From the NCBI RefSeq assembly GCF_009914755.1, contig NC_060944.1: a DNA stretch of 64,000 nucleotides; one strand, given 5' to 3'. Shown piece by piece: positions 40,444 to 42,214 of the stretch. Numbering within the stretch: position 1 is the stretch's first letter; the number at the start of each line of letters is the position of its first letter. The notes beneath the pieces are model-generated. The model was given only the letters and a program-made list of their open reading frames with translations. It did no database searches and was not told where the DNA came from. Origin of the DNA: the human T2T-CHM13v2.0 reference genome, Homo sapiens. A program made the position numbers and the translations under genes.

Positions 40444-40555
40444 CTGACAGAATAAATATGAAGAACAGTAATTATTATACATGTTTTTTTAAACAACACA
40501 ATAAGTACCTATAGGCATTGATAATTCTAGTTCACATTCACTTTTTTTTTTTAAC

Positions 40556-41187
40556 CTCCAAAGGAAATACATTTTTTAATGAGATCTAATCCATGATTTG
40601 TTTCCTAAACCCCTGCCTAAACCGTTGTTCATATTGCAAACCAAGGGTGACAAAGGTAAAAATCTGAAGGAAAACAATCCTTTCAGCAAATAAGTATTTT
40701 TAGAATAACAATAAAAAAAGAATTAACTTTTCCTTTCTAAATATGAAAATAGGCCGGGCGGGCATGGTGGCTCACGCCTGTAATCCCAGCACTTTGGGAG
40801 GCCGAGGCAGGCGGATTACGAAGTCAGGAGATTGAGACCATCCTGGCTAACACGGTGAAGCCCCGTCTCTACTACAAATACAAAAAAAATAGCCGGGCGT
40901 GGTGGCGGGCGCCTGTAGTCCCAGCTGCTTGGGAGGCTGAGGCAGGAGAATGGCGTGAACCCAGGAGGCAGAGCTTGCAGTGAGCCGAGATCGCACCACT
41001 GCACTCCAGCCTGGGCGGCAGAGCGAGACTCCATCTCACAAAAAAAAAAAAAAAAGAAAAAGAAAATAATCCCAAAATAATGAATCATTGTGAACAGGCA
41101 GATTTAGAATACATATCCCAAAGACCTTCAGAAAAGATCCTGGTTCTATCAATATCATCTTTGAAAAAAATCTAAAAGGAATCAATT
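40556..41187 (+). repeat. derived copy of a ~310 bp intragenic direct duplication, interrupted by an AluY at 40752-41061 (TSD gaaaata)
   Basis: aligns by eye with 52898-53208; about 13 substitutions and 2 indels in the first ~153 bp. Confidence 0.95.
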
Positions 41188-41190
41188 CCA

Positions 41191-41490
41191 TTTTTTTTTT
41201 TTTTGAGATAGAGTCTTGCTCTGTTGCCCAGGCTAGAGTGCAGTGGCACGATCTCAACTCACTGCAGACTCCACTTCCCAGGTTCAAGAGATTCTCATGC
41301 CTCAGCCTCCCAAGTAGCTGGGATTATAGGCGCCCACCATGCCCAGCTGACTTGTATTTTTAGTAGAGACAGGGTGTCACCATGCTGGCCAAGCTGGTCT
41401 CAAACTCCTAAACTCCTGACGTCAAGTGATCTGCCTTCCTCAGGCCTCCCAAAGTGCTGGTATTACAGGCATGAGCCACCTCACCCTGCC
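41191..41490 (-). mobile_element. AluS (full length) abutting the duplicated segment
   Basis: Alu consensus; T-run at 41191-41203. Confidence 0.9.
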
Positions 41491-42214
41491 CACATTCACA
41501 CTGTAATAATACATTGAGGTTACATAACACTGGTACTCTTCTCCCCAAAGCAAATATACAGGTAGTCTTAAATTCTTCATTAAAATATAACTTTTATATG
41601 AAGTAGGGGGAAAAATTAAATGAATATTAATAATTAGCTATACTGTCACAACACAAATAAATTAAAATATTCATATTGAATCCATGACTAAAATAATACA
41701 AATCTATTTCAGAAAGAGCACACGGTACAAGATAGCATCTAACCTAGCAATTGTTCTACTAGGGATCACTGTTACACTTCCAAAGCGTCACTTTAGATAT
41801 TCAGCTGCAACTAGTTATGCCACTAGTGCCGGGGGTGTGAGATATCAGAAGGTAAGAACAGAACTGTGAGTCAGAGCCATATTCTCAAATTTATATATTC
41901 TGCCATAAATAAACTGCATGATCGTGACAACACTGTTGGCATTAACTTGAAGCTACTCACCTACTTAACATAGGTAATAAAATGTTCATAAATACCAGAG
42001 AAGCTGTCAACTGTTTTGGATCTAAGCTTTTTCATCAACAGAGTCAAAATAAATAAATACCAAGAAACTTCTCTCCTTAGAAATTCTCTCCTAACTTAAG
42101 AATGCTTAATAATTGTGGGACTTTAACTTTTTTTTTTTTTTTTTTTTTTTTTTTTTTTTGCAGAAAAGACAAGTGAGACCATGCATTACAGCTCAAGCAA
42201 AAACTACTACTCCA

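What the first reader, a model, noticed from the sequence alone, without database searches (positions are those of the whole stretch)
40533..41499. Composite insertion: ~310 bp of GPCPD1 intron 4 captured together with an Alu under one apparent TSD
Seen: the plus strand reads cacattcac (40533-40541), T11, a copy of 52898-53208 (roughly 85-90% identical, same orientation, later split by an AluY), T13, a full-length minus AluS, then cacattcac again (41491-41499) exactly at the Alu 5' end. The Alu has no matching TSD next to its own tail. The source copy shows microhomology at both junctions: cactt-aa on the left, and atttt on the right matching the Alu tail. Established: L1 ORF2p target-primed reverse transcription can switch templates and make chimeric retrocopies. 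Inference: RT primed on nascent GPCPD1 pre-mRNA (minus RNA gives plus cDNA, the observed orientation), copied ~310 nt of an intron 12 kb away, then jumped to the poly(A) of an Alu RNA. That would be cis capture of host intronic RNA. Divergence between the copies is compatible with AluS age. The alternative is templated repair insertion into an existing Alu tail. Simple Pol III read-through is unlikely because TTTT runs follow the tail.
Basis: partly seen in the sequence, partly recalled or inferred. Interest (0 to 1): 0.8.

Follow-up and report, generated by a model that had tools for sequence, protein, structure and literature searches.

The report
Alu plus nearby intron copy insertion
A 320-base copy of unique intron DNA from 12 kb away in the same gene sits between two A-runs at the tail of an old Alu, inside that Alu's target-site duplication; this is a real but fairly ordinary by-product of retrotransposition or repair, and the exact route remains open.

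Summary
The 9-mer cacattcac occurs only twice in the 64-kb window. One copy lies left of T11. The other lies at the 5' end of a full-length minus-strand AluS. Between them are T11, about 321 bp copied from 52890/52901-53215, T14 (not T13), and the Alu. A later AluY with its own 7-bp duplication splits the copied segment.

The two segment copies differ by 31 substitutions in 316 aligned sites (86% identity with gaps). The whole T2T genome holds only these two loci. A true dispersed repeat from the same window gave 5873 candidates in the same search.

The segment's sense next to its A-run matches GPCPD1 transcription. Pol III read-through, a snoRNA-type retroposon and a TE family are rejected.

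The route cannot be settled here. One L1 ORF2p event with template switching (about 0.4), DNA-templated repair into an existing Alu tail (about 0.3) and a second TPRT event at that tail (about 0.2) all fit. The endonuclease site is non-canonical, the source has no canonical poly(A) signal, and the molecular clocks lack power. Primate orthologues, which were not available, would decide. I rate it a new member of a known kind, of moderate interest.

The parts
40533..40541 (.). Left copy of the 9-bp target-site duplication cacattcac
   Evidence: one of only two copies of this 9-mer in the window. It abuts T11.
40542..40552 (-). A11 in gene sense (T11 on plus). It is the outer A-run, next to the duplication, and has no counterpart in the source, which reads TT at this point.
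40553..40751 (-). Copied intron-4 segment, part 1 (the 3' part in gene sense), homologous to about 52890/52901-53091
40752..41061 (+). Later AluY-type insertion with its A-rich tail. It splits the segment. Its own 7-bp duplication GAAAATA lies at 40745-40751 and 41062-41068.
   Evidence: Variant bases shared with other young Alus in the window. 10 of 44 CpG positions decayed.
41069..41190 (-). Copied intron-4 segment, part 2 (the 5' part in gene sense), homologous to about 53092-53208/53215
41191..41204 (-). A14 in gene sense (T14 on plus). It is the inner A-run, directly after the AluS body.
41205..41490 (-). Full-length AluS-type element, in sense with GPCPD1, carrying a 9-base internal insertion
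   Evidence: 16 of 233 non-CpG sites differ from the window's S-like majority consensus (14 of them private), 19 of 43 CpG positions are decayed, and the 5' end is complete.
41491..41499 (.). Right copy of the target-site duplication cacattcac, exactly at the Alu 5' end
52890..53215 (-). Source segment in GPCPD1 intron 4. The sequence is unique, with no A-run, no duplication and no Alu at its edges. The core homology is 52901-53208, with possible microhomology TTAA on the left and ATTTT on the right.

Best explanation
An L1 ORF2p target-primed reverse transcription event about as old as the AluS produced the whole composite in one step.

Proposed course of events (steps 1-5 are inferred, not shown):
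1. The plus strand was nicked after cacattcac.
2. cDNA synthesis began on an A-run, giving T11.
3. Synthesis then ran over about 320 nt of GPCPD1 intron-4 RNA, which is minus sense and was presumably still tethered near the locus as nascent or unprocessed pre-mRNA.
4. At an A-run microhomology it switched to the poly(A) tail of an Alu RNA (T14) and copied the Alu to its 5' end.
5. A second nick 9 bp away produced the duplication.

The first A-run has two possible origins. It may have been an oligo(A) or poly(A) end on the intron RNA. Alternatively it was the distal part of the Alu's own tail, with an out-and-back template switch.

Shown: the anatomy, the single duplication, the uniqueness and direction of the copy, and the strand.
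Inferred: RNA as the template, one event rather than two, and ORF2p as the enzyme.
For: (1) The exact 9-bp duplication encloses everything, and the 9-mer has only these 2 copies in the window.

(2) A pure A-run (A11), absent from the source, abuts the outer duplication copy. This is the retro-insertion hallmark.

(3) The Alu and the segment have the same sense, and it is the sense of the host gene's transcript (hub annotation). This is required for an RNA template. It is a 1-in-2 coincidence for a DNA template.

(4) The segment is a unique sequence with 2 genomic loci. The positive control gave 5873 candidates. The source therefore has to be intron 4.

(5) Both junctions fall at A/T microhomology (TTAA; ATTTT after a 2-nt mismatch).

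(6) The point estimates order as AluS 6.0%, segment 5.3% per lineage, AluY 3.4%.

(7) Precedent in the literature:
- 452 Alu/LINE-1 chimeras bounded by one duplication, mostly AluJ/S age, of which only 40% have the EN motif (PMC13174262, section 12 read).
- Nine two-transcript insertions recovered experimentally (PMC11702581, section 7 read).
- Intronic donors among L1-type templated insertions (PMC5110952, parts 1-2 read).
- Early TPRT on A-tails is prone to dissociation and slippage (PMC3415434, passages read).
Against: - The nick site, GT|GTGA in sense notation, matches TT|AAAA at only 2 of 6 positions (by eye).
- The source has no canonical AATAAA or ATTAAA upstream of the segment's 3' end. 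The ATTAAA seen in the copy is explained by CpG decay (CA versus TG). A genuine poly(A) tail on the intron RNA is therefore unsupported.
- If L1 templates were drawn at random, a donor only 12 kb away would be about a 1-in-100,000 event. The model therefore needs an undocumented preference for locally tethered RNA. By contrast, DNA template switching is known, from recall, to use nearby templates.
- An A-run duplication from a second TPRT event at the Alu tail would be invisible.
- The clocks cannot separate the segment's age from either Alu (p=0.53 and 0.34).
- There is no RNA-editing signature: 2 of 31 differences are T>C on plus.
Confidence: 0.4

Rival explanations
1. Two events, the second at DNA level. 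The AluS inserted normally, with the cacattcac duplication and a tail of about 25 or more A. Later its poly(dA:dT) tract broke or stalled a replication fork. The T-run 3' end then copied about 320 bp from intron 4, 12 kb away on the same chromosome, by microhomology-mediated template switching (MMBIR/FoSTeS or SDSA-like). It returned into the tract at TTTT.
For: The segment sits between two pure T-runs (11 and 14) that together make one ordinary young-Alu tail. In this window 6 of 36 Alus still have A-runs of 20 or more. Both junctions show 2-5 nt T/A microhomology. The donor is only 12 kb away in cis, which is typical for replicative template switching (recalled, not read here). The clock allows any date between the AluS and the AluY. 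Experimental L1 insertions sometimes carry DNA templated from near the integration site (3 cases; PMC11702581, section 7).
Against: The orientation happens to match the transcript sense and the Alu sense (1 in 2 by chance). There is no other rearrangement at either locus. The two bases next to the right junction differ between copy and source (CC versus AA), which weakens the microhomology reading. Templated repair insertions of about 320 bp are rarer than short ones (recalled).
Confidence: 0.3
2. Two L1 events. The AluS inserted first. Later ORF2p nicked at the Alu body/tail junction (TC|AAAA in sense) and retro-inserted an adenylated fragment of intron-4 RNA in the same orientation. The target-site duplication of that second event consists of A's only (the A14), so it cannot be seen.
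For: TC|AAAA at the body/tail junction is a much better endonuclease site (5 of 6) than the outer site (2 of 6). A14 lies within the usual duplication length. Insertion next to Alu tails does occur in this window: the Alu at 15885-16161 sits in the duplication of the Alu at 15564-15845. Intron-derived RNAs with added A-tails are known L1 substrates (snoRNA retroposons with downstream intron; PMC1687206, passages). Adjacent retroposons there were judged to be successive events.
Against: It needs the same unexplained adenylated intron RNA and the same unexplained cis proximity as the one-step model, plus a second rare event at the same spot. On this model the outer A-run should initially be longer than the inner one, but it is now shorter (11 versus 14). 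This is only weak evidence, because A-runs shrink over time.
Confidence: 0.2
3. The Alu and the segment came from one contiguous transcript, either as an Alu 3' transduction or Pol III read-through from a source Alu next to the segment. Alternatively the segment is a member of a repeat or DNA-transposon family, and the arrangement is coincidental.
For: The segment's ends show a 12-bp imperfect inverted complementarity beside TTAA. The order Alu-A(n)-flank-A(n) is what a transduction would look like.
Against: No Alu lies next to the source. The nearest near-full-length Alus listed are at 50583-50857 and 54638-54923, and 52400-53650 is unique apart from the segment. T4 and T6-T7 runs in RNA sense lie within about 25 nt of the tail in both copies. 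The genome has only 2 loci, against 5873 candidates for a real repeat. The terminal complementarity is not unusual: 8% of 5789 control windows do as well, and 16% of 800 when boundary slack is allowed. There is no Rfam family.
Confidence: 0.04

Closest known systems
Alu/LINE-1 and other chimeric retro-insertions made by ORF2p template switching (Law & Burns 2026, PMC13174262; the Buzdin-type 'chimeric retrogenes' are recalled, not read here)
   Same: A full-length sense Alu is the 5' partner, joined through its A-tail to a second retro-copied sequence. One target-site duplication encloses both. The element is of AluS age. Absence of the EN motif is common in this class (only 40% have it).
   Different: The 3' partner here is not L1 or a mature mRNA end. 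It is about 320 nt of unique intronic sequence from the same gene, 12 kb away. Co-arrival of the two parts has not been shown by cross-species alignment.
Class 1 templated sequence insertions (TSI/TSIP; Onozawa & Aplan 2016, PMC5110952)
   Same: A few hundred bp of non-repeat, sometimes intronic, sequence is copied while the donor stays intact. The insert has a duplication of at least 5 bp and a non-templated A-run of 10-40.
   Different: No canonical cryptic poly(A) signal and no TTTT/A site. The donor is local rather than distant. The insert is fused to an Alu inside the same duplication.
Microhomology-mediated templated insertions at DNA breaks or stalled forks (class 2 TSI; MMBIR/FoSTeS, recalled)
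   Same: A nearby cis donor, short junction microhomology, and a target inside a poly(dA:dT) tract.
   Different: The insert lies exactly within a retroelement tail and in transcript sense. No deletion or further rearrangement accompanies it.
Intron-derived snoRNA retroposons carrying downstream intron sequence (Weber 2006, PMC1687206)
   Same: Intronic RNA that acquires an A-tail and is inserted by L1 with a duplication, often into introns in sense orientation.
   Different: No snoRNA or other Rfam family is found in the segment. In the snoRNA cases, adjacent elements each had their own duplication.

Membership tests
L1 ORF2p (TPRT) retro-insertion | Target-site duplication of about 7-20 bp flanking the whole insert | tested here: met
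   Exact 9 bp at 40533-41 and 41491-99, the only two copies in the window.
L1 ORF2p (TPRT) retro-insertion | A-run at the 3' end, next to the duplication, not templated by the donor | tested here: met
   A11 in the copy, where the source reads AA followed by GTG.
L1 ORF2p (TPRT) retro-insertion | Endonuclease motif TT|AAAA at the nick | tested here: not met
   The sense strand reads GT|GTGA, 2 of 6 positions (read). The motif definition is taken from PMC13174262.
Chimeric retro-insertion by template switching | Two parts from different transcripts, same orientation, inside one duplication | tested here: met
   The AluS and the intron-4 segment are both minus sense between the two cacattcac copies.
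Chimeric retro-insertion by template switching | No separate duplication around either part | tested here: inconclusive
   No non-A repeat lies next to the Alu tail. A duplication made only of A's (the A14) could not be recognised.
Chimeric retro-insertion by template switching | Both parts arrive at the same node in cross-species alignments | not testable with these tools
   No primate genomes are held. The clocks have no power.
Class 1 templated sequence insertion | Cryptic AATAAA-type signal 10-30 nt upstream of the A-run in the donor | tested here: not met
   The source reads GTTAAAAAATG about 25 nt upstream. The copy's ATTAAA traces to a CA/TG (CpG-type) difference.
Alu 3' transduction / Pol III read-through | A source Alu directly upstream of the transduced sequence, and no T4 terminator within it | tested here: not met
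   No Alu at the source. T4 and T6/T7 runs lie within about 25 nt.
Dispersed repeat / DNA transposon family | Many genomic copies; terminal inverted repeats beyond chance | tested here: not met
   2 loci in 3.1 Gb at E<=10, against 5873 candidates for the control repeat. Terminal duplex of -11.1 kcal/mol falls at the 8th percentile of 5789 controls.
snoRNA or other small-RNA retroposon | A recognised small RNA at the 5' end of the retro-copied piece | tested here: not met
   Rfam: 0 hits at gathering score in 40000-54000. One chance-level hit (E=0.93) in 52800-53300.

The most novel reading that the evidence does not exclude
While inserting an Alu into intron 6 of an actively transcribed gene, ORF2p left the Alu's poly(A) and reverse-transcribed about 320 nt of the host gene's own nascent intron-4 RNA, which was trailing from the polymerase at that site. 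It then switched back to the Alu. This would be a natural record that chromatin-tethered pre-mRNA can serve in cis as a template during TPRT. It would be a route to intragenic duplication of non-coding sequence, distinct from trans-mobilised mRNAs and from U6-type chimeras.
Probability: 0.3. Interest if true: 0.6.

Novelty: new member of a known kind. Interest (0 to 1): 0.35.

Why it matters
Chimeric L1-mediated insertions and templated sequence insertions are already catalogued, so the structure itself is not a new kind.

The unusual point is the donor. It is unique intronic sequence from the same transcription unit, only 12 kb upstream in the RNA, placed inside an Alu tail. If primate alignments show that the Alu and the segment arrived together, the locus would be evidence that local nascent RNA is used during TPRT. 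It would then justify a genome-wide search for Alus whose duplication encloses extra unique sequence.

If a species with the Alu alone exists, the locus instead documents an Alu poly(dA:dT) tail acting as a break site repaired from a nearby template.

Either way the insertion lies 89 nt from exon 7 of GPCPD1, in the intron upstream of that exon's acceptor, and it shows how TE annotation can hide small non-TE duplications.

Tried and rejected
(1) Dispersed repeat. Rejected by four whole-genome searches with a positive control.

(2) Pol III read-through or Alu transduction. Rejected.

(3) Known small RNA. No Rfam family. The RNA fold is not exceptional: z = -1.38, and 6 of 100 shuffles fold as well.

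(4) Terminal inverted repeat or 'panhandle' bringing the entry and exit points together. The 12-bp end pairing (-11.1 kcal/mol) is matched by 8% of 5789 control windows, and by 16% of 800 when boundary slack is allowed. Not significant.

(5) Molecular clock to separate one event from two. Private non-CpG divergence is 14/233 for the AluS, 8/237 for the AluY, and 31/316 for the segment pair (5.3% per lineage, 95% CI 3.5-7.5). The equality tests give p=0.53 and 0.34, so there is no power. The Alu reference was a majority consensus of the 36 window Alus, not a curated subfamily consensus.

(6) A-tail length argument. A-runs in the 36 Alus range from 0 to 34, so 11+14 is unremarkable.

(7) RNA-editing signature. 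2 T>C against 5 C>T among 31 differences, so no excess.

(8) Cryptic poly(A) signal. No canonical signal in the source. An A-rich stretch plus the GU-rich run GTGTTTTTGTT just past the segment end resembles non-canonical sites I recall from the literature, but this was not tested.

(9) The duplication cacattcac matches the source's left flank caaaaacac at 6 of 9 positions. 1.4% of window 9-mers match it that well. This is left unexplained.

(10) Other low-copy self-matches in the window. Only two further pairs were found; the shared partner region of both (55120-55525) proved to be a multi-copy repeat.

Literature searches turned up no description of an Alu fused to intronic sequence of its own host gene. 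These were five keyword searches of open-access text only, and supplementary tables of chimeras (e.g. Table S4 of PMC13174262) were not opened. This locus may therefore already be listed there.

Full report
**What is there**

Reading the plus strand gives this order:
- cacattcac, 40533-40541
- T11, 40542-40552
- 199 bp of non-repeat sequence, 40553-40751
- a plus-strand AluY-type element with its tail, 40752-41061, bracketed by its own 7-bp duplication GAAAATA (40745-51 and 41062-68)
- 122 bp more of non-repeat sequence, 41069-41190
- a minus-strand AluS-type body complete to its 5' end, 41205-41490
- cacattcac again, 41491-41499

In the sense of GPCPD1 (minus strand) the original insert reads: duplication, full-length Alu, A14, about 321 nt, A11, duplication. 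That is about 632 bp before the AluY arrived.

By the hub's exon table the insert lies in intron 6, with 89 nt between it and exon 7 (40320-40443). The matching sequence lies in intron 4, starting about 450 nt downstream of exon 4 in gene sense.

**Is it more than chance?**

The 9-mer occurs exactly twice in the 64-kb window and never on the other strand. I compared 36 near-full-length Alus in the window.
- For 13 of them, the 9 bases at the 5' flank recur exactly within 800 nt beyond the body.
- In 11 of those 13 the only recurrence is next to the tail (offsets 8-41).
- One further Alu has a hit next to the tail plus a second at offset 310.
- One has a low-complexity hit at offset 164. By eye, a degenerate duplication also sits next to that tail.
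- Only this Alu has its sole recurrence far away, at offset 664, which is precisely the outer end of the second A-run.

**The copied segment**

Within the window the segment has exactly one partner, in the same orientation: 40558-40749 matches 52901-53091 (86.2%) and 41056-41194 matches 53081-53215 (85.6%). With the AluY excised, a global alignment has 285 matches, 31 mismatches (14 transitions, 17 transversions, one CpG-type site) and 12 gap events.

Four searches of the whole 3.1-Gb assembly found only these two loci, with 2 first-look candidates each time. The queries were the source, the copy, and 1.25 kb around the source, three of the four at E up to 10. A control repeat from the same window (55120-55525) gave 5873 candidates, and all 40 that were scored matched. 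The tool therefore does detect dispersed families.

The segment is thus unique DNA duplicated once. The copy flanked by A-runs inside an Alu's duplication is the derived one. The source has no A-run, no duplication and no adjacent Alu.

**Junctions**

- Left junction. The source reads cac-TT-AAtgactccc and the copy reads cac-T11-AAc-ctcc. The A11 is not templated by the source.
- Right junction. The source reads caatt-AA-attttgatc and the copy reads caatt-CC-a-T14. Homology may therefore extend through ATTTT after two mismatches. BLAST extends it to 53215.
- Both edges thus fall at short A/T microhomology.
- The nick implied by the structure is plus strand ...ttcac/actg, or GT|GTGA in sense notation. 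It matches the TT|AAAA motif at 2 of 6 positions.
- No canonical poly(A) hexamer precedes the source's 3' edge. The copy's ATTAAA corresponds to a CA/TG difference, best read as decay of an ancestral CpG in both copies.
- Just past the source edge lies GTGTTTTTGTT, and about 25 nt before it lies an A6 run. From recall, this resembles non-canonical cleavage sites. I did not test it.

**Excluded readings**

- Pol III read-through from the Alu is excluded. In RNA sense a T4 and a T6/T7 run lie within about 25 nt of the tail in both copies, and no Alu adjoins the source.
- No Rfam family matches: 0 at gathering score over 40000-54000 and one chance-level hit at E=0.93.
- The RNA does not fold unusually well (z = -1.38).
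- Its ends can pair over 12 bp beside TTAA, which made me consider a transposon or a 'panhandle'. However, 8% of 5789 control windows pair as well, or 16% of 800 with boundary slack. With only two genomic copies I drop this idea.

**Timing**

The reference was a majority consensus of the 36 window Alus.
- AluS: differs at 16 of 233 non-CpG sites, 14 of them private (6.0%), and at 19 of 43 CpG positions.
- AluY: has 8 of 237 differences shared by at most two other copies (3.4%), and 10 of 44 CpG positions decayed.
- Segment pair: 5.3% per lineage (95% CI 3.5-7.5).

The order AluS, then segment, then AluY is what any model requires. The tests of equal age give p=0.53 (segment versus AluS) and p=0.34 (segment versus AluY). 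The clock therefore cannot tell co-insertion from a later insertion. They do not rest on a curated library.

**Mechanism**

Three routes fit the anatomy.

(a) One ORF2p event with template switching. cDNA starts with T11, copies intron-4 RNA, then switches at an A-run to Alu RNA.
- Support: the single duplication, the outer A-run, and both parts being in the sense of the host transcript.
- Precedent: 452 Alu/LINE-1 chimeras under one duplication, mostly of AluJ/S age, only 40% with the EN motif (PMC13174262, section 12). Nine two-transcript insertions in cell experiments (PMC11702581, section 7). Intronic donors among L1-type templated insertions (PMC5110952). Unstable early reverse transcription on A-tails (PMC3415434, passages).
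- A variant removes the need for an adenylated intron RNA. Synthesis would start on the Alu's own tail, hop to the intron RNA at AA, and hop back at AAAA.

(b) The Alu came first, and later a break or stalled fork in its poly(dA:dT) tail was repaired by copying nearby DNA. The 12-kb cis distance is natural here, whereas RNA models need locally tethered pre-mRNA. The matching orientation is then a 1-in-2 coincidence.

(c) The Alu came first, and a second TPRT event occurred at the good TC|AAAA site at the body/tail junction, leaving an invisible all-A duplication. Successive insertions beside Alu tails do occur in this window (15564-16161). Weber judged them the rule for intron-derived snoRNA retroposons (PMC1687206, passages).

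I put (a) at about 0.4, (b) at 0.3 and (c) at 0.2.

**Comparison and verdict**

The locus works like a chimeric retro-insertion or a class-1 templated insertion.
- It meets the duplication, A-run and orientation criteria.
- It fails the EN-motif and cryptic-signal criteria.
- Its co-arrival criterion cannot be tested here.

It is best filed as a new member of a known kind. The unusual feature is a same-gene intronic donor.

Five keyword searches found no description of such a case. They cover open-access text only, and I did not open the supplementary chimera tables. The decisive test is presence or absence of the Alu and the segment across primates.

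Noticed in passing
window 40533-40541 vs 52881-52889: The target-site duplication cacattcac matches the 9 bases left of the source segment (caaaaacac) at 6 of 9 positions, including the last three. 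Only 1.4% of window 9-mers match it that well. This could reflect primer-template annealing, or it could be chance.
   Followed up: partly
window 52890-53215 (minus sense): The segment's two ends can pair over 12 bp (one bulge, two G-U pairs) beside TTAA motifs. This is not significant against 5789 control windows (8th percentile).
   Followed up: yes
window 52869-52900 (minus sense): Immediately past the 3' edge of the source segment lies a GU/U-rich run (GTGTTTTTGTT), and about 25 nt before the edge lies an A6 run. This could be a non-canonical intronic cleavage/adenylation site in GPCPD1 intron 4. It was not checked against 3'-end data.
   Followed up: no
window 15540-16200: Two plus-strand Alus lie in tandem. 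The second (15885-16161) has its own duplication AAAGATGTTTT, which lies inside the longer duplication of the first (15564-15845). This is an ordinary example of successive insertion beside an Alu tail.
   Followed up: partly
window 41395-41425: The minus-strand AluS carries a 9-base internal insertion relative to the window consensus. By eye it is a tandem duplication (aaactcct aaactcct on plus).
   Followed up: no
window 13760-13924, 16227-16460, 55120-55525: These are the only other low-copy self-matches in the window (74-79% identity). The 55120-55525 piece belongs to a multi-copy dispersed repeat (5873 genome candidates). The family was not identified.
   Followed up: partly
window 22450-22910: The 9 bases at the 5' flank of the minus-strand Alu at 22615-22885 recur 164 nt beyond its body. 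The sequence is AT-rich, and a degenerate duplication also sits right after the tail, so this is probably chance.
   Followed up: partly
window 40444-41499: The composite (a sense AluS and an antisense AluY) starts only 89 nt from exon 7 of GPCPD1, on the acceptor side of intron 6. Any effect on splicing was not examined.
   Followed up: no
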